Counted from the stretch's first letter, positions 9,507 through 21,263 are shown. The stretch: 21,382 bases of DNA from a virus (IMGVR_UViG_3300028833_000002); one strand, 5' to 3'. Notes: a model not told the origin generated them from the sequence alone. Program-made: numbers and translations.

Positions 9507-9544
9507 GGGAAGCAGCGTGCGAGCGCGTAGCGCGAGTTAGCTGT

Positions 9545-10421: not shown

Positions 10422-10443
10422 CGCCAATTCTTTTATTATATTA

Positions 10444-10610
10444 CAGTTGGTTTAAATTTTTACACCCAGTTGGTTTAAATTTTTACAGCAGATGGTTTAA
10501 ATTTTTACACCCAGTTGGTTTAAATTTTGACATTCGGGCGGGTTGTCAGTTTAAATTTTTACAACCAGTTGGTTTAAATTTTTACACCCAGATGGTTTAA
10601 ATTTTTACAC
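10444..10610 (+). repeat. iteron-like tandem array, 7 x 22-23 bp (CAG(T/A)TGGTTTAAATTTTTACACC)
   Basis: Four copies 10444-10534, a 12-bp interruption, then one partial and two full copies to 10610. Confidence 0.9.
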
Positions 10611-11425: not shown

Positions 11426-11435
11426 AAATTTTCCA

Positions 11436-11463
11436 GCTCTAGGACAGCTCCTAGGGCTTTTTT
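11436..11463 (+). terminator. intrinsic terminator
   Basis: GCTCTAGGA-CAGC-TCCTAGGGC then TTTTTT. Confidence 0.8.
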
Positions 11464-11480
11464 ATTTGTGTGCGTCCGAC

Positions 11481-11646
11481 GCAGCTCCTTCGCAGCTCCT
11501 ATAAGACCCCTATAACGCCGCGCCCGGGGAGACCGCTCCCTATCCGCCCGGATGTGCCGCGATTTTATGGGGCTGACGGACGACGTAAATGGGTGGCTTG
11601 GCGGCGCGAATAAATGTGGGCGGGATGCAGCTCCTTCGCAGCTCCT
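11481..11646 (+). repeat. direct repeat GCAGCTCCTTCGCAGCTCCT x2 bracketing a GC-rich structured segment
   Basis: Identical 20-mers at 11481-11500 and 11627-11646, each itself a tandem GCAGCTCCT. Confidence 0.8.
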
Positions 11647-11758
11647 TTAAGGGGCGTAAATACGTGGTGTGCCGTGGGGAGTGGGTGGAAATGGGGGAAT
11701 TGAGGGAAAGATGGCGAGATTGGAAAATTTCGTTAGAAATGGAAGAATGTGGTAAATT

Positions 11759-11797
11759 GCCCGGGCAAATTGGCAATAAGTGGTAAAAGGCCCGGGC
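11759..11797. promoter_or_regulatory. double GCCCGGGC site at the end of the cassette array (no promoter follows)
   Basis: GCCCGGGC at 11759 and 11790 in periodic TGG(T/C)AA(A/T) / TTT(A)CCA boxes. Confidence 0.7.
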
Positions 11798-11831
11798 AGA
11801 ATGCCAAATTTTACCAATCAAATGGCAAAAT

Positions 11832-11854
11832 AAAACCACTCCCGAAGGAGTGGC
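11832..11854 (-). terminator. terminator, cassette 1
   Basis: GCCACTCC-TTCG-GGAGTGGT-TTT on the minus strand. Confidence 0.85.
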
Positions 11855-11860
11855 AATATT

Positions 11861-12124
11861 TTACATGGTAAGGTCGATGATGTCTTCGCCCTCCAAATCG
11901 TCCATGTCTGTGACTTCTTCAATGTCGATATAACAATCTTCCAAAAAGTCATCAAATTCTTCATCTGTGTAACCATCTGTGTATGCAACATCTATATTGC
12001 TTGCGGCATAGTCATAAATTCCGTCTAACATATAATCGTTAACTTCCTCTTCACCATTTGCCTTAAAATAAAGCGTATCGTCACAACCGCAGTAACCACA
12101 AGTATACGTGCCTTTAAAATACAT
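11861..12124 (-). CDS. very acidic small protein with CxxC (87 aa), possible DNA mimic
   Basis: GAGGAGGAAG RBS inside the upstream gene; about 27 D/E versus 2 K; CGYCG motif. Confidence 0.8.
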   Translation of the reverse strand: MYFKGTYTCGYCGCDDTLYFKANGEEEVNDYMLDGIYDYAASNIDVAYTDGYTDEEFDDFLEDCYIDIEEVTDMDDLEGEDIIDLTM

Positions 12125-12693
12125 TAATCTTCCTCCTCTTCATCCAAGTCTTCATCTTCATTGTCATTATCTGCCATGTCAAAACAATCCTCTTCTTCAA
12201 CTTCAATGTTAAAACTGGACTCCCAAAAACTGAGAACAAAACTACCACTTTCCGGCGCAAGTGCTTCCAGTGCCTTGTTAATTTCTTTTGCAGTATGGTA
12301 GTCAATTTCTGATGATAAAGCATTGTCATATGCTTCATGGTCATAATCATCGTAAATCATATCATACCACGGTAACTCAATTTCATCATCGTTATCTTTA
12401 CGTGCGCAAATACCTACATTCTGTATAAACCATTCAATTTTTGTATCACGGTCAACCTCTTCGGCAAGTGCCTGTGCTAAATTCCACAATGAAATATATG
12501 AAGTGCCATTGTAGATGTAGCCGGTATAATGTTCAACGTCGAAAAATCTGCCGTTATAGCGGTCACAATTCTGCATAACCTTTTCAACTTCGTTAACAAT
12601 TCTGTCTGAAAAGTCGTTCTTTAAGGCGCTGGTTAAATCTGTAAGATTTGAGTAAAATGATGGGCAGTGTCCTTCGTAAATTACTTTGTACAT
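12124..12693 (-). CDS. hypothetical protein with a long acidic C-terminal tail (189 aa)
   Basis: First gene of the cassette, leader plus GGAAGGA RBS; tail EEEDCFDMADNDNEDEDLDEEEED. Confidence 0.85.
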   Translation of the reverse strand: MYKVIYEGHCPSFYSNLTDLTSALKNDFSDRIVNEVEKVMQNCDRYNGRFFDVEHYTGYIYNGTSYISLWNLAQALAEEVDRDTKIEWFIQNVGICARKDNDDEIELPWYDMIYDDYDHEAYDNALSSEIDYHTAKEINKALEALAPESGSFVLSFWESSFNIEVEEEDCFDMADNDNEDEDLDEEEED

Positions 12694-12701
12694 AGTTATT
12701 A

Positions 12702-12733
12702 TCCTTCCGGTTTTAGGGACTTATTACCTGTCC
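12702..12733 (-). ncRNA. leader stem-loop/pseudoknot + SD, copy A
   Basis: GGAC-AGGUAAUAA-GUCC-CU-AAAACC-GGAAGGA. Confidence 0.75.
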
Positions 12734-12757
12734 TTTGTTGTTTTATCTTATGTATAT

Positions 12758-12786
12758 ATTATAACATAGAATAGGGCAGTTGTCAA
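12758..12786 (-). promoter_or_regulatory. consensus sigma-A promoter
   Basis: TTGACA-17-TATAAT, TGn extension. Confidence 0.95.
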
Positions 12787-12828
12787 GTGTTTTTCTAAAA
12801 ATTTTTCGCTGCCAAAATCTACCAAATC

Positions 12829-12836
12829 GCCCGGGC
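12829..12836. promoter_or_regulatory. GCCCGGGC core of the periodic site
   Basis: Starts 43 bp from the -35 hexamer. Confidence 0.7.
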
Positions 12837-12865
12837 GAAAAGGCAGAATTTACCATTTAAGGGGT

Positions 12866-12890
12866 AAAATAAATCGCCCCGAAGGGCGAA
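12866..12890 (-). terminator. terminator, cassette 2
   Basis: TCGCCC-TTCG-GGGCGA then TTTATTTT. Confidence 0.85.
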
Positions 12891-12893
12891 GTA

Positions 12894-13304
12894 TTAGTCG
12901 TTGTATTTTTCCGTAATATGGCTTGCATACTTATCATAGTAAATGTTGTCATATATTTCCATATCATACTGTAATAACCGTATTTTATCTTGTAACTCTT
13001 TTATCTCATTATGGCACAAATCCGCCGCATCTTCATAATGTAACACTTCTTCATACCTTTTGACTATTATTCTGTCTTCTGCTACTTCATCGGTATTAAA
13101 AATATCAAAAACGCCAGTTAAAACTTCTTTAAAGACATCAAATTCAGTTTCAGTACATTTTATAATTTCAAAGGGGTAACCGTCATCAATGGCATTGATA
13201 AGATTTTCATAGTTTTTGTCCTGTATAAAATCCTCACAGTTGTCAGAAAGTGTTAATTCATAACAATCTCTTTCATGGTACATTCTGTATACAATTACTA
13301 TCAT
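12894..13304 (-). CDS. acidic hypothetical protein (136 aa)
   Basis: GGGAGG RBS favours ATG at 13304 over the track start at 13319. Confidence 0.8.
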   Translation of the reverse strand: MIVIVYRMYHERDCYELTLSDNCEDFIQDKNYENLINAIDDGYPFEIIKCTETEFDVFKEVLTGVFDIFNTDEVAEDRIIVKRYEEVLHYEDAADLCHNEIKELQDKIRLLQYDMEIYDNIYYDKYASHITEKYND

Positions 13305-13306
13305 AG

Positions 13307-13726
13307 TTAATCCTCCCAAATTAAATCAATGTGAAAACTGTTAATATTTACTGTCATGTCCACCATTTCCCAGTGTCTATTGTACGCTTCTTGTAATATA
13401 TTGGTTAAAAAATTATCAACAAATGTATTTGCCGCATCATACATTTCTCTTGAAAGTATACGATTTCTGTACAAAAGAAGTATATCACTTAAATGAAAGT
13501 CTCCGATTGTTTCATCTGTGTCATAAATAGTTTCTGCATGAAGGGTAAAACAATAATCTGTCAAATTATACCAAGTTGTTATAATGTCTTCGGCAGAACT
13601 TTGGTCTAACATATAATTTACCATTAATCTTAATGAACTTGTTTCAAAGTCATTACACTTAAAGCAACACTTTTTCATATTGGTTTTGTTCCCTTTTTTC
13701 ATATTGGCTTTGTCCTTTTTTTTCAT
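13307..13726 (-). CDS. hypothetical protein (139 aa) with a triplicated start region
   Basis: First gene of the cassette; in-frame ATGs at 13726, 13702, 13678 from a 24-bp tandem repeat. Confidence 0.8.
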   Translation of the reverse strand: MKKKDKANMKKGNKTNMKKCCFKCNDFETSSLRLMVNYMLDQSSAEDIITTWYNLTDYCFTLHAETIYDTDETIGDFHLSDILLLYRNRILSREMYDAANTFVDNFLTNILQEAYNRHWEMVDMTVNINSFHIDLIWED

Positions 13727-13734
13727 ATTGGTTA

Positions 13735-13764
13735 TCCTTTCCGGTTTTAGAGTCTTTCCTGACT
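13735..13764 (-). ncRNA. leader stem-loop/pseudoknot + SD, copy B
   Basis: AGUC-AGGAAA-GACU-CU-AAAACC-GGAAAGGA. Confidence 0.7.
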
Positions 13765-13778
13765 TATCTTATGTATAT

Positions 13779-13807
13779 ATTATAACATATTCCGCCGCGA
13801 TTGTCAA
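13779..13807 (-). promoter_or_regulatory. consensus sigma-A promoter
   Basis: TTGACA-17-TATAAT; spacer contains ATCGCGGCGGAA. Confidence 0.95.
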
Positions 13808-13849
13808 GTAGTTTTGAAGAAAAATTTTCGCGGCAATAAATGGTAAAAT

Positions 13850-13857
13850 GCCCGGGC
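13850..13857. promoter_or_regulatory. GCCCGGGC core of the periodic site
   Basis: 43 bp from -35. Confidence 0.7.
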
Positions 13858-13891
13858 GAAAAGGAAAAATGTGGTAATGGCATAATAAATG

Positions 13892-13915
13892 AAAACCGCC
13901 CAATAAATGGGCGGC
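13892..13915 (-). terminator. terminator, cassette 3
   Basis: CCGCCCA-TTTAT-TGGGCGG-TTTT. Confidence 0.85.
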
Positions 13916-13919
13916 GTGT

Positions 13920-14384
13920 TTACTTCAACCATTTTGCTATATATTCGCTTGTATAACCACTACGGATAGGGGGATTAGATAAATCAGTTAAAAAACCGCT
14001 ACCCTTATTTATTTTAATATGTATACCATATAAACTTTTTGCTTTTTCTTTAGGTTTAAGTTCAACATAGTTAGTTCTATTTTTATCTTGATTTAGTTTA
14101 TCTATCTCTGTATTCTTTACATAGAAATAAAAAGGTAAATCCGTTTTGTCCTCTCTTTTAGTATGGAATACACATTTTGTATAATGCGTATTAAACCAAA
14201 GGAGTTGACATTTTCGATAGAATTTGACGATAGGACGAATGAAAATGAACACAATAAGCGTCCAAACACCGCATAAAGCGTATTGTATTTTTTCATTATC
14301 ATATAAGTTCGCAAGAGAAACGATAAAAATAATAAGCTGATAAGCAATAATTGTGATGATTATAGTTAAAATAATAGTTGTCAT
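13920..14384 (-). CDS. membrane protein, two N-terminal TM helices (154 aa)
   Basis: AAGGA RBS; hydrophobic segments near aa 3-26 and 35-52, basic C-terminal domain. Confidence 0.8.
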   Translation of the reverse strand: MTTIILTIIITIIAYQLIIFIVSLANLYDNEKIQYALCGVWTLIVFIFIRPIVKFYRKCQLLWFNTHYTKCVFHTKREDKTDLPFYFYVKNTEIDKLNQDKNRTNYVELKPKEKAKSLYGIHIKINKGSGFLTDLSNPPIRSGYTSEYIAKWLK

Positions 14385-14386
14385 AA

Positions 14387-14593
14387 TTAATCCTTCTTTG
14401 ATGTTGTCTTAAAGAAACTGCCAATGATTGAAAGTACAATCGCCCATAGTGCCGCCTGTTTCCAAGTCCATGTCGCAATTACACCTAACTTACAAAGTGC
14501 CCACAGTCCAAATCCTACAAGAAGAATTGAAAAACCATAACAAATTGCCATAATAGCAACAACAGCGATAAATGTTAATAAAACTTTTTTCAT
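14387..14593 (-). CDS. small membrane protein (68 aa)
   Basis: Almost entirely hydrophobic; first gene of the cassette. Confidence 0.85.
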   Translation of the reverse strand: MKKVLLTFIAVVAIMAICYGFSILLVGFGLWALCKLGVIATWTWKQAALWAIVLSIIGSFFKTTSKKD

Positions 14594-14602
14594 AATAGAA
14601 AA

Positions 14603-14636
14603 TCCTTTCCGGTTTTAACGACTTATAACCTGTCGT
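14603..14636 (-). ncRNA. leader stem-loop/pseudoknot + SD, copy C
   Basis: ACGAC-AGGUUAUAA-GUCGU-U-AAAACC-GGAAAGGA. Confidence 0.75.
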
Positions 14637-14659
14637 GTTTTGTTTTATCTTATGTATAT

Positions 14660-14688
14660 ATTATAGCACAGTTTAAGGCGCTTGTCAA
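14660..14688 (-). promoter_or_regulatory. consensus sigma-A promoter
   Basis: TTGACA-17-TATAAT. Confidence 0.95.
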
Positions 14689-14729
14689 GTGTTTTTAAAA
14701 ATTTTTTCGCCGCCAAAAACTGCCAAAAC

Positions 14730-14737
14730 GCCCGGGC
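14730..14737. promoter_or_regulatory. GCCCGGGC core of the periodic site
   Basis: 42 bp from -35. Confidence 0.7.
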
Positions 14738-14772
14738 ATTCTGCCAAAATTTACCAATTATGGCATATAAAG

Positions 14773-14796
14773 AAACCGCCCTCTTTCGAGAGCGGC
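14773..14796 (-). terminator. terminator, cassette 4
   Basis: GCCGCTCTC-GAAA-GAGGGCGGT-TT; identical 24-mer at 19151 and 20309. Confidence 0.85.
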
Positions 14797-14801
14797 GAAA
14801 T

Positions 14802-15119
14802 TTACCAGTCTGACCTATTGTCCCGTATATATTGACTTATATAATATAAAAGATAAGGCATATTACAATCTTTACTATTAACTGTAAAATTGTCACTTCC
14901 TGCCCAGTCCGGACCTTTTACATCCACTATGTCATTGTAAATATCCTCCTCTTTATCAAAATCAAACATACCAATATTTCTCAGAATGGTATTTTCTTCC
15001 TCTAACTTCTCTATTCGCTTTTCTAACTGGATTATTTTGGAGAACAGTGCGGCAAGTACCGCATCTGTTTCCATTTTTTTACCATCCTTGTCATAAAATC
15101 CACTTTCCCACAATTTCAT
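14802..15119 (-). CDS. hypothetical protein with a short coiled coil (105 aa)
   Basis: GAGGT RBS; segment KIIQLEKRIEKLEEENTIL. Confidence 0.8.
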   Translation of the reverse strand: MKLWESGFYDKDGKKMETDAVLAALFSKIIQLEKRIEKLEEENTILRNIGMFDFDKEEDIYNDIVDVKGPDWAGSDNFTVNSKDCNMPYLLYYISQYIRDNRSDW

Positions 15120-15129
15120 TTTTCTTACC

Positions 15130-15573
15130 TCACATTCTTAACACGGCATTTAAGATGTCAAAGATTTCCTTTTCGGAGTAAGCACCTTTTCCCCATTCTT
15201 CCCTAATTTCCTTATTATCATCAAAAAGGATACCTTTACCAAGGCTGTGCTTTGGCGTGCCGTATGGTACAATACAAATCTCATCCCATTCCACAGATGG
15301 AAGATGTTTCCTAAGCCACTGTAATTTGGCTTCCTTTGTGCGCTTGTCAAATTCCGGTGTACTTTCCTTTGAGCACCATGAAACGATTTTCAGAGTAAAG
15401 TCTAATTCCTTCTGTAATTTGTTGAGAAGTTTGGCAAGCCTTGACAAGTTAAGTCGTGCCTTAGCATCCTTGTATGGTCTTACGGAATAATTTCTCAAAT
15501 CTTCCAACCAACCTTCAACTTCATAGAAGTTATTTAAAGTTCCGTCCATGTCAAATACTATTTCTTTTTCCAT
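15130..15573 (-). CDS. HAD-superfamily phosphatase, 5'(3')-deoxyribonucleotidase-like (147 aa)
   Basis: Motif I IVFDMDGT, motif II IVSW, K..WL..HLP and motif IV ILFDDN. Confidence 0.8.
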   Translation of the reverse strand: MEKEIVFDMDGTLNNFYEVEGWLEDLRNYSVRPYKDAKARLNLSRLAKLLNKLQKELDFTLKIVSWCSKESTPEFDKRTKEAKLQWLRKHLPSVEWDEICIVPYGTPKHSLGKGILFDDNKEIREEWGKGAYSEKEIFDILNAVLRM

Positions 15574-15587
15574 AATTTAGTCCTTTC

Positions 15588-15650
15588 TTAATCAATAAAC
15601 ATTAAAATAACTGCAAAGAGAGTTAAACCTATAAGCATCAATGCGGTCAT
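15588..15650 (-). CDS. 20-aa hydrophobic peptide MTALMLIGLTLFAVILMFID (below the ORF-track cutoff)
   Basis: GAGGTG RBS directly after the cassette promoter; TAA followed by the RBS of the HAD gene. Confidence 0.65.
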   Translation of the reverse strand: MTALMLIGLTLFAVILMFID

Positions 15651-15675
15651 TTAAACACCTCTTTTCTATGTTTCT

Positions 15676-15704
15676 ATTATAACATATTTATAGGCGGTTG
15701 TCAA
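15676..15704 (-). promoter_or_regulatory. consensus sigma-A promoter (cassette without the structured leader)
   Basis: TTGACA-17-TATAAT. Confidence 0.95.
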
Positions 15705-15744
15705 TAGTTTTTAAAAATTTTTTATTTCCAGTTCCTACCAAAAT

Positions 15745-15752
15745 GCCCGGGC
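15745..15752. promoter_or_regulatory. GCCCGGGC core of the periodic site
   Basis: 41 bp from -35. Confidence 0.7.
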
Positions 15753-15781
15753 ATTCTGTCAAAATTTTCCAGTTATACCAT

Positions 15782-15820
15782 AAAAATGGGGCGGCAACCC
15801 TTTTCCAAGAGTTACCGCCC
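15782..15820 (-). terminator. terminator, cassette 5
   Basis: GGGCGGTAACTCTT-GGAA-AAGGGTTGCCGCCC then CATTTTT. Confidence 0.8.
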
Positions 15821-15826
15821 TTACCA

Positions 15827-16552
15827 TTAAAATGGAAGCCATCTTTCGTATCCAGTTTCTTCCACAAATTTTTGAAATGTTTTCCAAGCACAAATACAAT
15901 TCCATACTTGTTTTTTACCAGATTTTAACGCCCATAGCAAAATTTCATACTCTATCATAACATCACTTAAACCTGTATGTTCTTCTTCAAAATCAGCATA
16001 ACTTTCACCCTTTAAATATCTATAGACTATCTCGGCACTATAACGATAATTACCTTTTTCTGTCAGATAACCATGTCTATCACAGAACTGTAAATATTTC
16101 GGGTCAAGTAGTCTACTATGAACAACCGCACTCATAATGTCACGTATTTCCAATTCTAACATTTCATACCTTGCGCCTAAAAGACGGGATAAAGCGGAAT
16201 TGTCAAAAGCTACATTATAAGCATACAGTTTTTTGATTTTGTATTTCTGAATATCACTTGTAAATAATATCCAAAAACTTTCAATACTTATGCACTTGTA
16301 CTTCCTGTTTTTAGCACTATTCTCATAGTCTGTTAAAATGTCTTTAGTGTTTTTTAAGTGCATTTCCTTACATAAGCCAGTTTCTAAAGAATTTATCAGA
16401 TTTTGCCACACCGCATAAGGTAGCGCAATTGACCTCTTTTGGTAAATATTGCCGGCATTATCTGCTACAATATAACCAATATTGTAGGGTAGGCAAGTGG
16501 AATTTCCTTCCACGTCTAACACTAAAAACTTTTCCTTTGGACGACCTCTCAT
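15827..16552 (-). CDS. DEDDh (DnaQ-like) 3'-5' exonuclease (241 aa)
   Basis: ExoI LVLDVEG, ExoII AYNVAFD, ExoIII EEHTGLSDV. Confidence 0.85.
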   Translation of the reverse strand: MRGRPKEKFLVLDVEGNSTCLPYNIGYIVADNAGNIYQKRSIALPYAVWQNLINSLETGLCKEMHLKNTKDILTDYENSAKNRKYKCISIESFWILFTSDIQKYKIKKLYAYNVAFDNSALSRLLGARYEMLELEIRDIMSAVVHSRLLDPKYLQFCDRHGYLTEKGNYRYSAEIVYRYLKGESYADFEEEHTGLSDVMIEYEILLWALKSGKKQVWNCICAWKTFQKFVEETGYERWLPF

Positions 16553-16563
16553 TTTTTGGTAAT

Positions 16564-16596
16564 TCCTTTCCGGTTTTAACGACTTATGACCTGTCG
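16564..16596 (-). ncRNA. leader stem-loop/pseudoknot + SD, copy D
   Basis: CGAC-AGGUCAUAA-GUCG-UU-AAAACC-GGAAAGGA. Confidence 0.75.
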
Positions 16597-16611
16597 ATTT
16601 ATTATGTTATT

Positions 16612-16640
16612 ATTATATCACATTTGCGGTTGTTTGTCAA
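16612..16640 (-). promoter_or_regulatory. consensus sigma-A promoter
   Basis: TTGACA-17-TATAAT. Confidence 0.95.
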
Positions 16641-16700
16641 GTGTTTTTAAAAAATTTTTTCGCGGCGAAATATGGTAGCGCTGGAAAATGCTGGAAAGTC

Positions 16701-16708
16701 GCCCGGGC
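16701..16708. promoter_or_regulatory. GCCCGGGC core of the periodic site
   Basis: 61 bp from -35. Confidence 0.7.
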
Positions 16709-16740
16709 ATTTTGCCAAAATTTTCCAGTTTTGGATAAAA

Positions 16741-16773
16741 AATAAAAGAGGGCTGAACCGAAGTTCAGTCCTC
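16741..16773 (-). terminator. terminator, cassette 6
   Basis: GAGGACTGAAC-TTCG-GTTCAGCCCTC-TTTTATT. Confidence 0.85.
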
Positions 16774-16779
16774 GCTGGA

Positions 16780-17196
16780 TTATTCTGCCTTATTTTCCGC
16801 CTTTTCCTGTTCTCTTTTTGCCTTGTCTTTTTCTGCCTTTTCTGCTGTCTTTTTCTTCTTTTCCTCTTTTTCCTTTAATGTGTTTTTATACTTCTTTTCT
16901 TCCTCCCATCTATTATATTTTTCAAATTTTCTTTTTTCCGTTCTGTAGTCCTTATACTTGCATAAAGTTGGAGATATTACCGCACAACGTTCAACCCTCT
17001 TACCAGTGTCTTCCAGTTCTACCTCTCCAATGGCAACGGCAACCTCACTGGCACCTACAATGGAAACATTTTCCTCTCCGTATGCTTCAATCATAGCCTT
17101 GACGATAACATCAAAAAGGGTTGCTCTAAAGATGTTATCCATTTTCTGACTTTTTACTTCTTTTTCCTTTAAACTTACAAATTCTGCCTGTTCCAT
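16780..17196 (-). CDS. hypothetical protein with a Lys/Glu-rich C-terminal helix (138 aa)
   Basis: Sole gene of the cassette; GGAAGGA RBS. Confidence 0.85.
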   Translation of the reverse strand: MEQAEFVSLKEKEVKSQKMDNIFRATLFDVIVKAMIEAYGEENVSIVGASEVAVAIGEVELEDTGKRVERCAVISPTLCKYKDYRTEKRKFEKYNRWEEEKKYKNTLKEKEEKKKKTAEKAEKDKAKREQEKAENKAE

Positions 17197-17203
17197 AATC
17201 TTT

Positions 17204-17236
17204 TCCTTCCGGTTTTAACGTCTTATAACCTGACAT
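17204..17236 (-). ncRNA. leader stem-loop/pseudoknot + SD, copy E
   Basis: AUGUC-AGGUUAUAA-GACGU-U-AAAACC-GGAAGGA. Confidence 0.75.
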
Positions 17237-17287
17237 AAATTGATAGTATGGTTTTTAGGTGTTTTCTTCCCTTCACCTTATGTTAAT

Positions 17288-17316
17288 ATTATAGCACATC
17301 TTTTCGGTTTTGTCAA
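17288..17316 (-). promoter_or_regulatory. consensus sigma-A promoter
   Basis: TTGACA-17-TATAAT. Confidence 0.95.
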
Positions 17317-17377
17317 TAGTTTTAGAAAAATTTTTTAAAAAGTTTTTTATGGTAGAATTGGAAAAATCTGGAAAAAC

Positions 17378-17385
17378 GCCCGGGC
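17378..17385. promoter_or_regulatory. GCCCGGGC core of the periodic site
   Basis: 62 bp from -35. Confidence 0.7.
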
Positions 17386-17419
17386 AAAAAGGTAAAAATT
17401 TCCAGTAACATGGTATAAG

Positions 17420-17440
17420 AAAACCGCCCCGAAGGGCGGC
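17420..17440 (-). terminator. terminator, cassette 7
   Basis: GCCGCCC-TTCG-GGGCGGT-TTT. Confidence 0.85.
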
Positions 17441-17445
17441 ATAGA

Positions 17446-17652
17446 TTAATCATCGTATAAATTAAGTGCTTCAATACTTGCGACATCACAATTGTCATCA
17501 AGATACGTATTTAAGTCAATTTCTGTATTTCCTGTATACGGTTCACCTGTTAAATCTGCGATTGTTGACAAAACGTCTTCAAGTGCGGAGGAATATTCGG
17601 TATACGCACATATTGCACAACCCATACTATGCACTACATATATTTCTTTCAT
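17446..17652 (-). CDS. small acidic protein (68 aa)
   Basis: ATGA coupling with the upstream gene; about 14 D/E versus 1 K. Confidence 0.75.
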   Translation of the reverse strand: MKEIYVVHSMGCAICAYTEYSSALEDVLSTIADLTGEPYTGNTEIDLNTYLDDNCDVASIEALNLYDD

Positions 17653-18044
17653 TTGTTATACCCCTTTTCTTTAAGAAACTCAATACATTTTTCCGTCCAA
17701 TTAACCATAAGTTCTGCTTGTTCTAAGTAATCTGTTATACGCACTACGTGACCGTCTTCACGAGCAATAAACCATGAATTTTTCCATGGAACCTCCAAAC
17801 ATCTTGCTAAAATGCCATAATTTACATCAGTAAAAGCCTCATGAAAGTATCGAACCATGTAATCTTTTTCCTTTTCTGAAAGTCCCATTACTTGGAAGGG
17901 ATAACCACATTCGGCTATTAAACTTATTACTTCGCTTACTTCATCATCTCTTTCCCCTTCAATTATTTCAAATTCCGGAACTTTGTATTCAATTATCTTA
18001 AAATTTAAACTTATTGCATCATTTTTACAAACCTTAATATACAT
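17649..18044 (-). CDS. hypothetical protein (131 aa)
   Basis: GGAGGT RBS, TGA stop. Confidence 0.8.
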   Translation of the reverse strand: MYIKVCKNDAISLNFKIIEYKVPEFEIIEGERDDEVSEVISLIAECGYPFQVMGLSEKEKDYMVRYFHEAFTDVNYGILARCLEVPWKNSWFIAREDGHVVRITDYLEQAELMVNWTEKCIEFLKEKGYNK

Positions 18045-18045
18045 A

Positions 18046-18258
18046 TTATACCTCCTTTACAAACAAAGCTATGTTTAATGTCAAGAAAATTCCATTAATG
18101 ATAGCTCCTACCAATGCCTTATGTCTTATACTATCAAGAAGACCAGCACTTGACGACACTATGAAACAAGGTGCTGCCCAATTACTTCCAGCATAGCATA
18201 ATCCTGCCGCGATAGCACAGCAGAATATCATAAATACTTCAATATCTCTTATCTTCAT
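18046..18258 (-). CDS. small membrane protein (70 aa)
   Basis: Two to three hydrophobic segments; first gene of the cassette. Confidence 0.8.
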   Translation of the reverse strand: MKIRDIEVFMIFCCAIAAGLCYAGSNWAAPCFIVSSSAGLLDSIRHKALVGAIINGIFLTLNIALFVKEV

Positions 18259-18267
18259 GGTAAAAAG

Positions 18268-18296
18268 TCCTTCCGGTTTTAGAGTCTTTCCTGACT
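18268..18296 (-). ncRNA. leader stem-loop/pseudoknot + SD, copy F
   Basis: AGUC-AGGAAA-GACU-CU-AAAACC-GGAAGGA; 36 nt identical to copy B. Confidence 0.7.
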
Positions 18297-18310
18297 TATC
18301 TTATGTTTAT

Positions 18311-18339
18311 ATTATATCATATTTGCGATGAGTTGTCAA
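18311..18339 (-). promoter_or_regulatory. consensus sigma-A promoter
   Basis: TTGACA-17-TATAAT. Confidence 0.95.
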
Positions 18340-18379
18340 GTGTTTTTAAAAAATTTTTATTGGGAATTTGTGGTAAAAT

Positions 18380-18387
18380 GCCCGGGC
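18380..18387. promoter_or_regulatory. GCCCGGGC core of the periodic site
   Basis: 41 bp from -35. Confidence 0.7.
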
Positions 18388-18416
18388 AGTTTGGAAGATT
18401 TTACCAGTAATAGGAC

Positions 18417-18443
18417 AAAAAAGAAACCACCCCGAAGGGTGGC
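18417..18443 (-). terminator. terminator, cassette 8
   Basis: GCCACCC-TTCG-GGGTGGT-TTCTTTT. Confidence 0.85.
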
Positions 18444-18448
18444 ATAAG

Positions 18449-18985
18449 TTACCAATTGATATATAATGGATAACAAGGACGCAACATAGAGTTATAAATT
18501 AATATACCTTTTTTAATTTCAGCATTAAAACCATGATTTTGTAAATAAAGTTCAACATCTTTTACACAATATTCAATTGGAAGGTCATAAGTAGTTTCAC
18601 GATGACCACATTTAGCATCTAAAACAATCACACGTTCTATGTATTTAAGTTCCTTTGATATTCCTTTACGTCGTCTAAGTTCCTCTTTATCTTCCTTTAA
18701 TTGCTTTTTGTATTCTCCTTTGTTAATTACCCTTTGTGCTTTTTCAAGCGTAGACAGTTTTCTCGGTTTTGTTGAGAAATCATAACTGATACCAATATCT
18801 ATCCACACTACCATTATTACAAAAAAGCGAGTTATAAATATAAAAAATAAGGGAGTGAATAAATCTGAGGTGCCTAAAAGGCGAGATAACATTAAAATGC
18901 TAAAAATAGTAAAAGCAATATTCATTATGTGTATTATCATACTCCATAAATTAAAAATGTTTAAATTTCTTTCCTTTTCTGACAT
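18449..18985 (-). CDS. membrane protein, two N-terminal TM helices plus a basic coiled coil (178 aa)
   Basis: Hydrophobic aa about 10-35 and 43-66; sole gene of the cassette. Confidence 0.85.
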   Translation of the reverse strand: MSEKERNLNIFNLWSMIIHIMNIAFTIFSILMLSRLLGTSDLFTPLFFIFITRFFVIMVVWIDIGISYDFSTKPRKLSTLEKAQRVINKGEYKKQLKEDKEELRRRKGISKELKYIERVIVLDAKCGHRETTYDLPIEYCVKDVELYLQNHGFNAEIKKGILIYNSMLRPCYPLYINW

Positions 18986-18993
18986 ATAGTTTA

Positions 18994-19025
18994 TCCTTCC
19001 GGTTTTATAGAGTTGTAACCTCTCT
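18994..19025 (-). ncRNA. leader stem-loop/pseudoknot + SD, copy G
   Basis: AGAG-AGGUUACAA-CUCU-AU-AAAACC-GGAAGGA. Confidence 0.75.
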
Positions 19026-19037
19026 TTCTATATTCTT

Positions 19038-19066
19038 ATTATATCATATTTCGCCGCGATTGTCAA
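19038..19066 (-). promoter_or_regulatory. consensus sigma-A promoter
   Basis: TTGACA-17-TATAAT; spacer contains ATCGCGGCGAAA. Confidence 0.95.
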
Positions 19067-19107
19067 CACCTTTTTCAAAAAAATTTTTTACCAATTCCTA
19101 CCAAATT

Positions 19108-19115
19108 GCCCGGGC
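19108..19115. promoter_or_regulatory. GCCCGGGC core of the periodic site
   Basis: 42 bp from -35. Confidence 0.7.
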
Positions 19116-19148
19116 GTTTCGCCAAAATTTACCATTTCTACCATAAAC

Positions 19149-19174
19149 AAAAACCGCCCTCTTTCGAGAGCGGC
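19149..19174 (-). terminator. terminator, cassette 9
   Basis: GCCGCTCTC-GAAA-GAGGGCGGT-TTTT. Confidence 0.85.
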
Positions 19175-19180
19175 AAATTA

Positions 19181-19543
19181 TTACTTTACGATGTATTTAT
19201 TCGGAGTACCCTTCTGAATGTCAACTATATCGGCATTCTGTAAGTTTCTCATAATCGCTGTAAACTTTGACGAGTTCATTTTAAAGTCATATTCCTTTTC
19301 AAGTTCACCGATGACTGTTGCCTGTTTCTTCCATATTTCGTCCATGGTATAAATCAGACCTTTGTTTAAACCCGCTACCATTTTCTTACCAATTTCTGTG
19401 TTCTGTTCTCTCTTTTCTGCGGAATTTTTTGCCGACCTTGCGTTTTTACTGTCAACACTGGCAAGAAGTGCCTTTGCTTTTTCTGTAATTTCGTCGCTAA
19501 GATTTGCGGCAATAACCGCATTATAAAATTCTCTCTGTGTCAT
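19181..19543 (-). CDS. small protein with a probable C-terminal winged helix (120 aa), distant paralog of 20358 and 20946
   Basis: AAGGAGGG RBS; shared MT.R.FY..V.AN.....E...A N-terminus and NSSK...I.R....V...P..Y C-terminus. Confidence 0.8.
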   Translation of the reverse strand: MTQREFYNAVIAANLSDEITEKAKALLASVDSKNARSAKNSAEKREQNTEIGKKMVAGLNKGLIYTMDEIWKKQATVIGELEKEYDFKMNSSKFTAIMRNLQNADIVDIQKGTPNKYIVK

Positions 19544-19556
19544 GGTAAAACCCTCC

Positions 19557-20096
19557 TTATTCCTCTACTGTTACCGTATCTTCATAGAACTGACAAATTG
19601 TATCATCCGATAATCTAAGTATGATATACTTTTTACCGTCTTTTCTTCTATTATTAGTAGTGCCGATAAATTCATATCTGTTACAACCCCAACGAAAAAT
19701 GTCATGTGGTTTAAGTTCTGATAACTTTTTCTTTACTTCAAATTTAGGGCGCTCAACGTGGTTATACTTTGCCCAAAGTACACCTAAACCAGTAAAGACT
19801 TTAAACTTATCCTTTTTATTACAATAAGTTTCCACAAACTTACCGCTACGAGTATTAAGAAGACCTATTTTACGTGCCTTCGTGTTAACAGTAACCACAT
19901 AATTACCAAAGGTAAAGCTGTCGGCGCCTCCATAGGCATAGTCCTGGCGTTCAAAAGTTCTGTAAACTTCTGTCATTACATCATCAAAATCCATTGGAAA
20001 GCCTACCTGACCACTATTTACCGTTGCATTTGCCATAGCAATAATGAATGAATGCATCTGTGAGAGAGTCCATGTTGAGAATGTAAGATTTTCCAT
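19557..20096 (-). CDS. hypothetical phage protein (179 aa)
   Basis: First gene of the cassette; contains C...D.F....G motif (YCNKKDKFKVFTG), which recurs in phage hypotheticals from recall. Confidence 0.85.
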   Translation of the reverse strand: MENLTFSTWTLSQMHSFIIAMANATVNSGQVGFPMDFDDVMTEVYRTFERQDYAYGGADSFTFGNYVVTVNTKARKIGLLNTRSGKFVETYCNKKDKFKVFTGLGVLWAKYNHVERPKFEVKKKLSELKPHDIFRWGCNRYEFIGTTNNRRKDGKKYIILRLSDDTICQFYEDTVTVEE

Positions 20097-20104
20097 AGTT
20101 AAAT

Positions 20105-20136
20105 TCCTTTCCGGTTTTATAGACTTGAACCTGTCT
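20105..20136 (-). ncRNA. leader stem-loop/pseudoknot + SD, copy H
   Basis: AGAC-AGGUUCAA-GUCU-AU-AAAACC-GGAAAGGA. Confidence 0.75.
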
Positions 20137-20163
20137 GTTTGTTTTGTTTTATCTTATGTATAT

Positions 20164-20192
20164 ATTATAGCATAGAATAGGATACTTGTCAA
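20164..20192 (-). promoter_or_regulatory. consensus sigma-A promoter
   Basis: TTGACA-17-TATAAT. Confidence 0.95.
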
Positions 20193-20264
20193 TAGTTTTT
20201 TGAAAATTTTTTAAATTTATTTTTCGCGGCGAAATATGGTAAGATTGGTAAGAATTGGCAAAAT

Positions 20265-20272
20265 GCCCGGGC
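20265..20272. promoter_or_regulatory. GCCCGGGC core of the periodic site
   Basis: 73 bp from -35; TGGCAAAAT-GCCCGGGC-GTTTCGCCA imperfect palindrome. Confidence 0.7.
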
Positions 20273-20307
20273 GTTTCGCCAAAATTTTCCAATGGTGGAA
20301 ATAAAAG

Positions 20308-20332
20308 AAAACCGCCCTCTTTCGAGAGCGGC
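20308..20332 (-). terminator. terminator, cassette 10
   Basis: GCCGCTCTC-GAAA-GAGGGCGGT-TTT. Confidence 0.85.
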
Positions 20333-20357
20333 TTCCAGTTTCTGCCGTTTTTGGTTA

Positions 20358-20675
20358 TCACTTCTTGCTGTACTGCTTAGGTGACGAATCATCTGATACA
20401 ACCTTATCCTTTAAGATTTCACGGAGAACGTAACCAATCTTTGAGGAGTTGTACTTGCCTGAGAACATAGCAACGATGTCAGAGTTAAGGTACTTCTTTC
20501 CAGCCTCCATCTTGGCGAGGATTTCCTCGCCGAGAGCAACGTTAGCTTCACGCTTGCTGTCCTTTGCCTTATCTTCCTCCGCAAACTTAGCAAGGTACTT
20601 TCCAGCAATTTCCTTAGCTTCTGCTGAAATTGTTGCATTTGCGGCTACCTCTGAATAAAAAGCTCTAAGTGTCAT
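20358..20675 (-). CDS. small protein with a probable C-terminal winged helix (105 aa), tandem copy 1
   Basis: 98 of 105 aa identical to 20946-21263. Confidence 0.85.
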   Translation of the reverse strand: MTLRAFYSEVAANATISAEAKEIAGKYLAKFAEEDKAKDSKREANVALGEEILAKMEAGKKYLNSDIVAMFSGKYNSSKIGYVLREILKDKVVSDDSSPKQYSKK

Positions 20676-20684
20676 AATTAAAAT

Positions 20685-20716
20685 TCCTTTCCGTTTTATA
20701 GTCTTATAACGTGACT
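20685..20716 (-). ncRNA. leader stem-loop/pseudoknot + SD, copy I (compensatory variant)
   Basis: AGUC-ACGUUAUAA-GACU-AU-AAAAC-GGAAAGGA; loop CGUU matches tail AACG. Confidence 0.75.
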
Positions 20717-20763
20717 TAAATTGTTTTTAAGGGGTTTTCTTTATCCCCTCACCTTATGTATAT

Positions 20764-20792
20764 ATTATAACATAGATTTATTAGAATGTCAA
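20764..20792 (-). promoter_or_regulatory. consensus sigma-A promoter
   Basis: TTGACA-17-TATAAT. Confidence 0.95.
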
Positions 20793-20853
20793 TAGTTTTT
20801 CTAAAAAATTTAAAAAAGTTTTTTATGGAAGAATTGGAAAAATCTGGCAAAGT

Positions 20854-20861
20854 GCCCGGGC
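20854..20861. promoter_or_regulatory. GCCCGGGC core of the periodic site
   Basis: 62 bp from -35. Confidence 0.7.
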
Positions 20862-20896
20862 GAAATGGAAAAATTTTCCAGTAATGGGTTAAAATG

Positions 20897-20921
20897 AAAG
20901 CCGCCCTCTTTCGAGAGCGAC
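20897..20921 (-). terminator. terminator, cassette 11
   Basis: GTCGCTCTC-GAAA-GAGGGCGGC-TTT. Confidence 0.8.
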
Positions 20922-20945
20922 TTCCAAACTGTGGCAGTTTTGGTA

Positions 20946-21263
20946 TCACTTTAATGAATACTGCTTTGGACTGGAATCGTCTGCCACTACCTTATCCTTT
21001 AAGATTTCTCTAAGGACATAACCAATCTTGCTTGAATTGTACTTGCCTCCAAACATTGCCACAATGTCGGAGTTAAGATACTTCTTACCCTTTTCCATCT
21101 TGGCAATAATTTCCTCGCCAAGTGCCACATTTGCGGCTCTCTTGGAATCCTTTTCCTTATCTTCCTCCGCAAACTTAGCAAGGTACTTTCCAGCAATTTC
21201 CTTAGCTTCTGCTGAAATTGTTGCATTTGCGGCTACCTCTGAATAAAAAGCTCTAAGTGTCAT
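20946..21263 (-). CDS. small protein with a probable C-terminal winged helix (105 aa), tandem copy 2
   Basis: Paralog of 20358-20675, offset 588 bp. Confidence 0.85.
   Translation of the reverse strand: MTLRAFYSEVAANATISAEAKEIAGKYLAKFAEEDKEKDSKRAANVALGEEIIAKMEKGKKYLNSDIVAMFGGKYNSSKIGYVLREILKDKVVADDSSPKQYSLK

What the first reader, a model, noticed from the sequence alone, without database searches (positions are those of the whole stretch)
11741..20880. GCCCGGGC-centred, ~10-bp-periodic site held in helical phase with the promoter
Seen: 12 copies of the octamer GCCCGGGC (11759, 11790, 12829, 13850, 14730, 15745, 16701, 17378, 18380, 19108, 20265, 20854), all in intergenic modules of an AT-rich sequence. 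Each is flanked by TGG(N)AAA / TTT(N)CCA boxes recurring every 9-11 bp, with box orientation varying between copies. Distances from the -35 hexamer to the core are 43, 43, 42, 41, 61, 62, 41, 42, 73 and 62 bp, i.e. about 4, 6 or 7 helical turns and never a half turn. Established: face-of-the-helix dependence is typical of activators contacting RNA polymerase and of bent or wrapped nucleoprotein complexes. Inference: a binding or wrapping platform for a phage regulator, or a recombinase crossover site with accessory boxes. The two copies at 11759/11790 have no downstream promoter, so the role may not be purely transcriptional.
Basis: partly seen in the sequence, partly recalled or inferred. Interest (0 to 1): 0.8.

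Follow-up and report, generated by a model that had tools for sequence, protein, structure and literature searches.

The report
Palindrome-centred boundary element of phage cassettes
In a large uncultured rumen phage, each small early-gene unit is separated from the next by one curved, mirror-symmetric DNA element of about 70 bp built around GCCCGGGC; it looks like a docking platform for an unidentified protein and is also a favoured seam where related phages gain, lose and flip gene cassettes.

Summary
GCCCGGGC occurs 12 times (0.04 expected), only in the spacers of a minus-strand array of early-gene cassettes.

With about 150 modules from relatives, including a full-length 180-kb genome, the octamer proves to be the dyad centre of a 64-70-bp element. 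TGGNA/TNCCA boxes sit at ±10.5, ±20.5 and ±29.5 bp. The GC periodicity is 10.75 bp and the predicted intrinsic bend is about 85°.

The element is tied to the upstream terminator (about 37 bp), not to the promoter. The gap to the -35 hexamer changes in steps of about 10 bp, and 11% of relatives' promoters are half a turn out of phase. Thirteen equally perfect promoters elsewhere in the full-length relative lack the element.

One relative carries a second core, GGCCGGCC, which differs by a symmetric double substitution.

Cassette exchanges cluster at the element. Whole cassettes are inserted inverted exactly at the core.

No serine or tyrosine recombinase, AbrB-family or HU gene was found in the full-length relative. 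The box grammar nevertheless matches the published AbrB consensus.

Best reading (about 0.5): a protein-wrapped boundary or operator element of early cassettes that doubles as a recombination seam. It is a variant of T4-type PeSL cassettes.

This scan has noted the same kind of palindrome-headed early cassettes in other large phages.

The parts
11731..11799 (-). Boundary element, distal copy of the terminal double module (core 11759-11766); no promoter follows
   Evidence: the two cores lie 31 bp apart, as in relative M2
11762..11830 (-). Boundary element (core 11790-11797), 37 bp after terminator 11835-11854; no promoter follows
12801..12869 (-). Boundary element (core 12829-12836); right-arm boxes in TGGNA orientation
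13822..13890 (-). Boundary element (core 13850-13857)
14702..14770 (-). Boundary element (core 14730-14737)
15717..15785 (-). Boundary element (core 15745-15752)
16673..16741 (-). Boundary element (core 16701-16708); three TNCCA boxes on the promoter side
17350..17418 (-). Boundary element (core 17378-17385); three TNCCA boxes on the promoter side
18352..18420 (-). Boundary element (core 18380-18387)
19080..19148 (-). Boundary element (core 19108-19115); all boxes in TGGTA orientation
20237..20305 (-). Boundary element (core 20265-20272); nearly perfect extended palindrome
20826..20894 (-). Boundary element (core 20854-20861)
12758..12786 (-). Early promoter TTGACA-17-TGnTATAAT with a consensus-like A/T UP tract; 42 bp after the core
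13779..13807 (-). Early promoter, gap 42
14660..14688 (-). Early promoter, gap 41
15676..15704 (-). Early promoter, gap 40
16612..16640 (-). Early promoter, gap 60
17288..17316 (-). Early promoter, gap 61
18311..18339 (-). Early promoter, gap 40
19038..19066 (-). Early promoter, gap 41
20164..20192 (-). Early promoter, gap 72
20764..20792 (-). Early promoter, gap 61
11835..11854 (-). Intrinsic terminator of the last cassette; stem end 37 bp before core 11790
12874..12889 (-). Intrinsic terminator, 37 bp before the core
13895..13915 (-). Intrinsic terminator, 37 bp before the core
14775..14796 (-). Intrinsic terminator, 37 bp before the core
15789..15820 (-). Intrinsic terminator, 36 bp before the core
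16753..16768 (-). Terminator-like hairpin, 44 bp before the core
17423..17440 (-). Intrinsic terminator, 37 bp before the core
18426..18443 (-). Intrinsic terminator, 38 bp before the core
19153..19174 (-). Intrinsic terminator, 37 bp before the core
20307..20336 (-). Intrinsic terminator (extended stem), 34 bp before the core
20895..20926 (-). Intrinsic terminator (extended stem), 33 bp before the core

Best explanation
GCCCGGGC is the dyad centre of a boundary element of about 64-70 bp that separates self-contained early-gene cassettes. Each cassette consists of UP element, perfect sigma-A-type promoter, leader, one to three ORFan genes, and terminator.

Shown: the element starts about 37 bp after the terminator stem. 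It carries up to three TGGNA-type boxes on each side of the core, one helical turn apart, mostly as an inverted repeat. It has 10.75-bp GC/AT phasing and a predicted intrinsic bend of about 85°. The core is invariant while the arms diverge. Each arm travels with its own cassette end, and the core is the joint at which cassettes are exchanged, duplicated and inverted.

Inferred: an oligomeric, two-fold symmetric DNA-binding protein docks on the palindrome. This could instead be a dimer at the core plus box-binding protomers with an AbrB-like site grammar. The protein contacts successive major grooves on the inside of the curve and wraps the spacer. The complex would sit between a terminator and the next very strong promoter. 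Its most likely job is to insulate or jointly switch (probably shut off) this one class of early promoters. By stalling or breaking DNA transactions at a short palindrome shared by all spacers, it also becomes the preferred recombination seam.
For: Enrichment and invariance:
- The window has 12 copies against 0.04 expected.
- About 140 of 153 modules in relatives carry the exact octamer, while the flanks are only 60-70% alike.
- All 29 copies in each of two relatives lie inside the array and none elsewhere, including in a 180-kb full-length genome.

Symmetry:
- Box occupancy in 145 non-identical modules is 94% at -19, 75% at -9, 97% at +12 and 83% at +22.
- TGGNA dominates on the left and TNCCA on the right.
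- The alternative core GGCCGGCC differs at positions 2 and 7 only, so it keeps the palindrome. This includes a switch inside an otherwise 96.8%-identical module.

Wrapping signature:
- The GC periodicity peaks at 10.75 bp, with power 0.92 against 0.27 in controls.
- Predicted deflection is 85° per 98 bp, against 38±20° in random windows and 35±18° in shuffles.

Box grammar:
- The boxes match the published high-affinity AbrB site definition: bipartite TGGNA, 4-5-bp AT-rich spacer, any orientation, and multi-motif footprints of 27-80 bp (PMC3738160).
- Here there are 26 such pairs against 0.1 expected, with spacers 75% A/T.

Anchoring to the terminator: 113 of 128 modules have a terminator-to-core distance of 33-38 bp, mode 37.

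Class specificity: in the full-length relative, the 27 array promoters (mostly TTGACA -35, strong UP tract) have a core upstream. Of the 13 perfect promoters outside the array, most (about 11) are of a second class with a TTGACT -35 and a different leader. None of the 13 has a core within 320 bp.

Seam:
- 37 of 61 half-homologous module pairs switch within 13 bp of the core.
- 12 of 27 distinct adjacency contrasts break within ±20 bp of the core.
- Complete cassettes are inserted inverted exactly at the core in two relatives.
Against: No binding protein was identified.
- The array proteins are ORFans, apart from a small winged-helix family whose recognition helix does not co-vary with the core type.
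- No AbrB/MazE-family or HU gene was found in the full-length relative or in two partial relatives. No AbrB hit was found in the incomplete MAG bin that holds the phage contig.

The site lies at about -75 to -145 from the transcription start, which is unusual for a simple repressor.

In nine strictly orthologous module pairs, box positions were no better conserved than spacer positions (small sample).

Insulation or shut-off is an inference; no expression kinetics are available. Two core types coexist in one array without any visible second binder.
Confidence: 0.5

Rival explanations
1. The element is a dedicated attachment site of a cassette-mobilising system, a phage analogue of integron or pdif-type cassette arrays. 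The 8-bp palindrome would be the crossover region and the boxes would be enzyme or accessory binding sites. Cassettes would be excised, inserted in either orientation and swapped between co-infecting phages. Any effect on transcription would be secondary.
For: - The layout is inverted arms around a short central region.
- Junctions concentrate at the core although exact identity through it is only 9 bp (median), against 12-14 bp in the UP/promoter region.
- Whole canonical cassettes are inserted inverted, with the core duplicated at both joints.
- Head-head and tail-tail joints occur at cores.
- The cassette maps show whole-cassette indels, tandem duplicates and permutations.
- Promoterless cores exist.
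Against: - No Resolvase or Phage_integrase family gene lies on the 180-kb full-length relative or on two partial relatives. The three integrase hits are on other contigs of the MAG.
- With a gapped change-point method, only 12 of 27 contrasts fall within ±20 bp of the core. The rest fall at the terminator or in the UP/promoter region, as expected for homology-driven PeSL-like exchange.
- Selection for evolvability alone explains poorly why every one of 29 sites per genome stays intact.
- No hybrid cores are seen in modules of the phage that mixes the two core types.
Confidence: 0.2
2. The box arrays are literal binding sites for a host AbrB-type transition-state regulator, so that expression of the early cassettes is coupled to the growth state of the Firmicute host. 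This would resemble the Spo0A boxes in phi29 early promoters (that comparison rests on my own knowledge).
For: The motif, spacer length, spacer composition, orientation freedom and multi-motif length all match the AbrB definition (PMC3738160). The full-length relative was binned with a Eubacterium sp. MAG, which is a weak hint of a Firmicute host.
Against: No PF04014 match was found in that incomplete 1.7-Mb MAG or on the phage. AbrB does not explain the invariant GC octamer. No composite sites occur on the other contigs of the MAG. Binning is not proof of host.
Confidence: 0.1
3. The element is a strong DNA gyrase or type II topoisomerase site that relieves transcription-driven supercoiling between very active tandem units. 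Subunit exchange at the cleaved dyad would cause the recombination.
For: The published gyrase motif is symmetric, has 10.75-bp GC periodicity in its arms and is enriched downstream of strong transcription units (PMC6379681). The element here shows the same period and symmetry and the same post-terminator position.
Against: - The conserved cleavage-domain preferences are -4G/+8C, -2A/+6T and +1G/+4C (PMC12324340). With the cut centred on the dyad, none is met: -2 is G, +1 is C, and -4 is A/T.
- Gyrase sites are degenerate, not invariant 8-mers.
- The phased region spans about ±45 bp, not ±65 bp.
Confidence: 0.05
4. No protein is involved. The element is intrinsically curved upstream DNA that boosts the promoter by wrapping around RNA polymerase. 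The GC octamer would be only the major-groove-compressible centre of the curve.
For: The predicted curvature is about 85°. The phased A/T tracts run continuously into a consensus-like UP element. Phase with the promoter is concentrated in the window.
Against: - Indirect readout cannot keep eight bases, plus the T and A of each box, invariant.
- Cores occur without promoters, and at 77-213 bp from promoters.
- 11% of gaps are half a turn off.
- The spacing is fixed to the terminator instead.
- Equally perfect promoters elsewhere lack the element.
Confidence: 0.07

Closest known systems
PeSL (promoter-early stem-loop) mobile regulatory cassettes of T4-type phages (Arbiol et al. 2010, PMC2839356)
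   Same: Both are small conserved intergenic units that combine a strong sigma-70-type early promoter with a terminator stem-loop. Both are repeated between small non-essential ORFan genes of a hyperplastic region. In both, insertions, deletions and replacements between related phages are bounded by the units.
   Different: Here a third component sits between stem-loop and promoter: a curved, dyad-symmetric element of about 70 bp with an invariant GC octamer and phased TGGNA boxes. Exchanges prefer this element over the longer promoter homology. Cassettes are also flipped at it. The host is Gram-positive-like. Mini-circles were not tested.
AbrB/Abh binding regions of Bacillus subtilis (Chumsakul et al., PMC3025583 and PMC3738160)
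   Same: Both have bipartite TGGNA motifs 4-5 bp apart with AT-rich spacers, in direct, inverted or everted orientation. In both, several motifs fill footprints of 27-80 bp.
   Different: AbrB sites have no GC-palindrome centre and are not arranged as a fixed 3+3 dyad. No AbrB-family gene was found on the phage or in the binned MAG.
Core-type sites of site-specific recombinases and cassette arrays (loxP/FRT, dif/pdif modules, integron attI/attC). The comparison rests on my own knowledge of these systems.
   Same: Both have inverted protein-binding arms around a 6-8-bp central region, accessory repeats nearby, and cassettes bounded by the sites.
   Different: The central region here is a perfect palindrome, so it gives no directionality. 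The cassettes carry their own promoters and terminators. No tyrosine or serine recombinase is encoded in the full-length relative.
Gyrase binding motif and strong gyrase sites (Sutormin et al. 2019, PMC6379681)
   Same: Both are symmetric with GC phasing of 10.75 bp, which indicates wrapped DNA. Both lie downstream of highly transcribed units.
   Different: The central cleavage-site preferences are not met, and the core is invariant rather than degenerate.
Host-takeover module of Bacillus phage SPO1: tandem early operons with very strong sigma-A promoters, and TF1 sites near the early promoters. The comparison rests on my own knowledge; it was not checked here beyond.
   Same: Both are tandem arrays of tiny ORFan genes, each behind a consensus host-type promoter and followed by a terminator. 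In SPO1 a phage architectural protein binds and bends DNA next to the early promoters.
   Different: No shared repeated palindrome is described for SPO1, and no HU/TF1 homologue was found here.

Membership tests
PeSL-type mobile regulatory cassettes | A conserved intergenic unit made of a strong sigma-70-like early promoter plus a terminator stem-loop | tested here: met
   Ten 12/12 promoters with TGn, and eleven terminator hairpins, one per spacer
PeSL-type mobile regulatory cassettes | Units lie in a hyperplastic region of small, mostly ORFan genes | tested here: met
   Pfam and PHROG gave no hits for nearly all array proteins. The cassette content differs between relatives.
PeSL-type mobile regulatory cassettes | Indels and replacements between related phages are bounded by the units | tested here: met
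PeSL-type mobile regulatory cassettes | Recombination between neighbouring units yields mini-circles | not testable with these tools
   Only contigs of public runs were available, not raw reads
AbrB-type binding region | [quoted passage not shown] | tested here: met
   26 pairs in the 12 modules against 0.1 in shuffles; 18.5 per kb against 0.6 per kb elsewhere; spacers 75% A/T. The definition is from PMC3738160.
AbrB-type binding region | Motifs function in direct, inverted or everted orientation, with several per footprint | tested here: met
   Both orientations occur in every slot across 145 modules
AbrB-type binding region | An AbrB/SpoVT-family protein is present in the phage or host | tested here: not met
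   PF04014 gave no match in the full-length relative plus its MAG bin or in two partial relatives. The MAG is incomplete, so host absence is not proven.
Site-specific recombination core site | Inverted binding arms flank a short central crossover region | tested here: met
   TGGNA arms on the left and TNCCA arms on the right of the 8-bp core
Site-specific recombination core site | Exchange junctions map inside or at the central region | tested here: inconclusive
   37 of 61 pairs switch within 13 bp of the core (ungapped). 12 of 27 contrasts break within ±20 bp (gapped). Two inverted cassette insertions are exact at the core. Junctions at the terminator and the UP/promoter region also occur.
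Site-specific recombination core site | A cognate tyrosine or serine recombinase is encoded | tested here: not met
   No PF00239 or PF00589 hit on the 180-kb relative contig or on G001/G002
Strong gyrase site | Symmetric motif with 10-11-bp GC periodicity in its arms | tested here: met
   Peak at 10.75 bp and dyad symmetry, compared with PMC6379681
Strong gyrase site | Cleavage-domain preferences -4G/+8C, -2A/+6T, +1G/+4C | tested here: not met
   Centred on the dyad, the core gives -2 G, +1 C and -4 A/T
Upstream curved-DNA promoter activator | Intrinsic curvature held at a fixed rotational phase to the promoter and needed by it | tested here: inconclusive
   Curvature is predicted and phase is concentrated (R about 0.6-0.9). 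However, half-turn exceptions, promoterless cores and element-free perfect promoters all exist.

The most novel reading that the evidence does not exclude
The element is the attachment site of a previously undescribed cassette-mobilisation system in large lytic phages. Autonomous promoter-gene-terminator cassettes would be cut and rejoined at an 8-bp GC palindrome, and inserted in either orientation, by an enzyme outside the tyrosine and serine recombinase families. This would be a phage 'integron' for host-takeover genes, with the phased boxes assembling the synaptic complex.
Probability: 0.18. Interest if true: 0.85.

Novelty: new variant of a known kind. Interest (0 to 1): 0.6.

Why it matters
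Large lytic phages keep arsenals of tiny, fast-evolving early genes, and how these are switched and reshuffled is poorly understood outside T4. This element gives a sharply defined and testable DNA handle: an invariant octamer, six phased boxes and a fixed distance from the terminator. The handle marks every cassette boundary, distinguishes one early promoter class from another in the same genome, and coincides with the points where cassettes are gained, lost and inverted.

Identifying the protein that reads it would reveal either a new early-gene switch or insulator, or a new recombination system. The element would also help to delimit and compare host-takeover cassettes in metagenomic phage genomes. 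The same kind of palindrome-headed cassette has been noted by this scan in other large phages, which suggests a general and largely undescribed design principle.

Tried and rejected
- **Phage database:** megablast of the array against INPHARED phages gave no match.
- **Literature on the octamer:** searches for the octamer with 'phage' or 'A-DNA' returned nothing relevant.
- **Leader motif scan:** a scan of viral contigs for the leader motif TAAAACCGGAARGGA returned only chance single hits.
- **Protein family searches:**
  - Pfam and PHROG on the array proteins, the plus-strand proteins and the boundary ORFs of relatives showed no regulator that could be tied to the site.
  - Resolvase, Phage_integrase, MazE/AbrB and HU searches in relatives found nothing on phage DNA.
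- **A-family winged-helix protein:**
  - A homodimer prediction gave no verdict.
  - Fold searches returned only generic winged-helix hits at weak E-values. These included Z-alpha domains, which I do not take as meaningful because the key Z-alpha helix residues are not conserved.
  - Its recognition helix does not co-vary with the core type.
- **Laying public runs:** only contigs were available.
  - Starts and ends cannot be seen.
  - The listed joints have short sides in repeated promoter DNA and were not used.
  - RNA contigs that stop short of the cores are not evidence that the spacers are untranscribed, because contigs also break at repeats.
- **Conservation profile:** the per-position profile in strictly orthologous modules rested on only 9 pairs and showed no difference between boxes and spacers.
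- **Rfam:** no family matched in the array.
- **Restriction-avoidance idea:** CCGG is not avoided (49 observed against 23 expected), so a simple restriction-modification explanation is unsupported.
- **Sigma-54 and CodY motifs:** both were considered from memory. They were rejected on spacing and sequence.
- **Scan index:** it holds no look-alike stretch of this array.

Full report
**Observation.** GCCCGGGC occurs 12 times in the 21.4-kb window, at exactly the stated coordinates. A mean of 0.04 copies is expected from dinucleotide shuffles. It is the only GC-only 8-bp palindrome present, and it accounts for 12 of the 13 CCCGGG hexamers.

Genes from 11.8 kb to the window end lie on the minus strand. 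Read in that direction, every spacer has the same order:
- an intrinsic terminator;
- a set of TGGNA/TNCCA boxes;
- the octamer;
- more boxes;
- an A/T tract that fits the UP-element consensus;
- a perfect TTGACA-17-TGnTATAAT promoter (ten promoters score 12/12);
- a conserved leader.

This layout is shown.

**Relatives.** No near relative exists among deposited phages. Pattern scans found the same module in several other sources:
- two IMG/VR contigs (29 and 14 exact cores);
- several rumen metagenome contigs;
- a 180-kb contig binned into a yak-rumen Eubacterium sp. MAG.

The window's left part maps to the end of that 180-kb contig and its array maps to the start. The contig is therefore in effect a full-length, circularly permuted relative. 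In it, all 29 cores lie within the 21-kb array. None lies in the other 158 kb, and none lies in the rest of the 1.7-Mb bin. Metatranscriptome contigs from sheep rumen cover the cassettes, so the array is present in RNA libraries.

**Anatomy from about 150 modules.** Box starts fall in six slots relative to the core start:

| Slot | TGGNA | TNCCA | Occupancy |
|---|---|---|---|
| -28 | 26 | 41 | 46% |
| -19 | 113 | 23 | 94% |
| -9 | 68 | 41 | 75% |
| +12 | 14 | 126 | 97% |
| +22 | 23 | 97 | 83% |
| +31 | 4 | 47 | 35% |

- The box centres therefore lie at ±10.5, ±20.5 and ±29.5 bp from the dyad. The dominant arrangement is an inverted repeat.
- GC content oscillates with a peak period of 10.75 bp (power 0.92, against 0.27 in control windows).
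- A dinucleotide wedge model predicts an axis deflection of 85° over 98 bp, against 38±20° for random windows and 35±18° for shuffled modules. It reproduces the classical phased versus unphased A-tract result and the A4T4 versus T4A4 result.

**What the element is anchored to.**
- The distance from the terminator stem end to the core is 33-38 bp in 113 of 128 modules, with mode 37. In the window it is 37±1 for nearly all copies.
- The distance from the core to the -35 hexamer falls into several classes: 39-44 (52 modules), 48-56 (10), 59-62 (29), 71-73 (8), 77-78 (9), 88 (5) and 93 (1). In 40 modules there is no promoter within 140 bp.
- The steps correspond to an extra box or an extra A/T tract of about 10 bp each. 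This keeps most promoters near one rotational phase: R = 0.86-0.89 in the window, and about 0.6 in 106 distinct family modules, 74% of them within 0.15 turn. It also leaves 11% about half a turn off.
- In the full-length relative, the 27 array promoters mostly have a TTGACA -35 with a strong UP tract, and all have a core upstream.
- Of the 13 equally perfect promoters outside the array, about 11 belong to a second class (TTGACT -35, different leader). None of the 13 has a core within 320 bp.
- The element is thus a post-terminator, array-specific boundary element rather than a promoter part.

**A second core.** One relative (IMG/VR 3300028832_000206) interleaves GCCCGGGC modules with modules whose core is GGCCGGCC. 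Variants are GACCGGCC, GGCCGACC and GGCCGGTC, and the boxes are the same. The two cores differ at positions 2 and 7, a symmetric change that preserves the palindrome. In one module that is 96.8% identical to its orthologue, only the core and two adjacent bases are switched. Selection therefore acts on a two-fold symmetric GSCCGGSC, as expected for a dimeric reader.

**Recombination seam.** Cassette maps (core-to-core segments) of the relatives share a backbone. They differ by whole-cassette insertions, deletions, replacements, tandem duplicates and permutations.

- *Ungapped comparison.* I compared module pairs in which one flank is homologous for at least 70 bp and the other is unrelated. The switch lies within 13 bp of the core in 37 of 61 pairs, and in the UP/-35 region in 12.
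- *Gapped change-point analysis.* On 27 distinct adjacency contrasts, 12 breakpoints fall within ±20 bp of the core, 7 fall at +29 to +63, and a few fall at the terminator.
- *Homology length.* Exact identity through the core is only 9 bp (median), against 12-14 bp in the promoter region. The preference for the core is therefore not explained by homology length alone.

The clearest single events are two inverted cassette insertions.
- In one relative, a complete 365-bp cassette is inserted in inverted orientation exactly at the core of an otherwise colinear module. The cassette has its own boxes, promoter, 59-codon ORF, terminator and 37-nt arm, and the core is duplicated at both joints.
- In the full-length relative, a 479-bp cassette is likewise inverted. 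This gives one core flanked by divergent promoters and the next core flanked by convergent terminators.

Each arm thus belongs to its cassette end, and the palindrome is the joint.

**Who reads it?**
- The array proteins are ORFans, apart from an NT5C-like protein and a PHROG of unknown function.
- A three-member family of 105-120-aa early proteins folds with high confidence (pLDDT 91.8) into a long helix plus a C-terminal winged helix. Structural matches are generic. Its recognition helix is the same next to both core types.
- The HTH_36 proteins on the plus strand sit behind their own, unrelated iterons.
- The full-length relative and two partial relatives encode no Resolvase, Phage_integrase, MazE/AbrB or HU family protein.

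The box grammar nevertheless equals the published definition of high-affinity AbrB sites: bipartite TGGNA, 4-5-bp AT-rich spacers, any orientation, and multi-motif footprints of 27-80 bp (PMC3738160). Such pairs are 31 times denser in the modules than elsewhere in the window. The element therefore works like an AbrB-type multi-site array flanking a palindromic nucleation site, but membership of that system is not supported.

**Rivals.**
- The gyrase binding motif shares the symmetry, the 10.75-bp phasing and the location downstream of strong transcription units (PMC6379681). Its conserved cleavage-site preferences (PMC12324340) are not met by the core.
- Curvature-only activation cannot explain the invariant bases, the promoterless copies or the element-free perfect promoters.
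- A dedicated site-specific recombination system fits the layout and the inverted insertions. It lacks a recognisable recombinase, and some junctions lie outside the core.

**Verdict.** The most economical reading (about 0.5) is a protein-wrapped boundary or operator element that insulates or jointly controls one class of early promoters. Because it is a short palindrome shared by all spacers and probably protein-bound, it is also the favoured seam for cassette exchange and inversion.

The closest published system is the PeSL cassette of T4-type phages (PMC2839356). This element is a new variant of that kind, with an added operator-like dyad element. Earlier notes of this scan describe palindrome-headed early cassettes that also act as seams in other large phages. 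I did not test those genomes.

Noticed in passing
window 9540-10110 and 10430-10610, with gene 10790-11425 (+): This is an origin-like non-coding block. It holds six repeats of about 90 bp (a G-rich run, alternating A/T, then TATAGTGCAAGTTAACTT) and then seven 22-23-bp iterons directly upstream of a 211-aa HTH_24/HTH_36 winged-helix gene. The full-length relative's contig is broken exactly in this region.
   Followed up: partly
window 11434-11651; relatives L127/L156 (far end of the array): A second repeat, GGAGCTRCG (CAGCTCC on the plus strand), flanks both ends of the array. In the far-end modules of relatives it lies between core and promoter, together with a 15-bp palindrome TGTGCA-N3-TGCACA. 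This may be the operator of another regulator.
   Followed up: partly
L172-L180 (G003:C94, the full-length 180-kb relative): There are two classes of perfect host-type promoter in one genome. The 27 array promoters (mostly TTGACA -35, strong UP tract) have the core element upstream. Most of the 13 perfect promoters outside the array have a TTGACT -35 and share the leader ATATATAGAAAGTTAAGAGAAAGGA; none of the 13 has the element. This suggests two temporal or regulatory classes.
   Followed up: partly
window 20358-20675, 20946-21263, 19181-19543 (-): These are three paralogous early proteins with a long N-terminal helix and a C-terminal winged helix (pLDDT 91.8). They are the only evident DNA-binding fold encoded in the array. 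They are confined to this phage family (39 homologues, mostly at least 79% identical).
   Followed up: partly
L002/L008/L010 and G002:C1:14032-26562: A relative mixes GCCCGGGC and GGCCGGCC-type cores in one array, with the far end purely of the second type. It looks like a recombinant between lineages with different core specificity.
   Followed up: partly
window 16659-16669 and 20223-20233 (also 13796-13835 and 19055): The genome-wide palindrome TTCGCSGCGAA, noted earlier in this genome, also sits inside several modules, between the last box and the UP tract.
   Followed up: no
L160-L162 (JAGCPW010000095.1): The full-length relative is binned in a Eubacterium sp. MAG from yak reticulum. This is a weak hint of a Firmicute host. 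No composite core-plus-box sites occur on the other contigs of the bin.
   Followed up: partly
window 15130-15573 and 15827-16552 (-): Two array genes are not pure ORFans. One is an NT5C-like 5'-nucleotidase domain protein. The other is a 241-aa protein of phrog_20187 whose N-terminal motif resembles a DEDD-type exonuclease.
   Followed up: no
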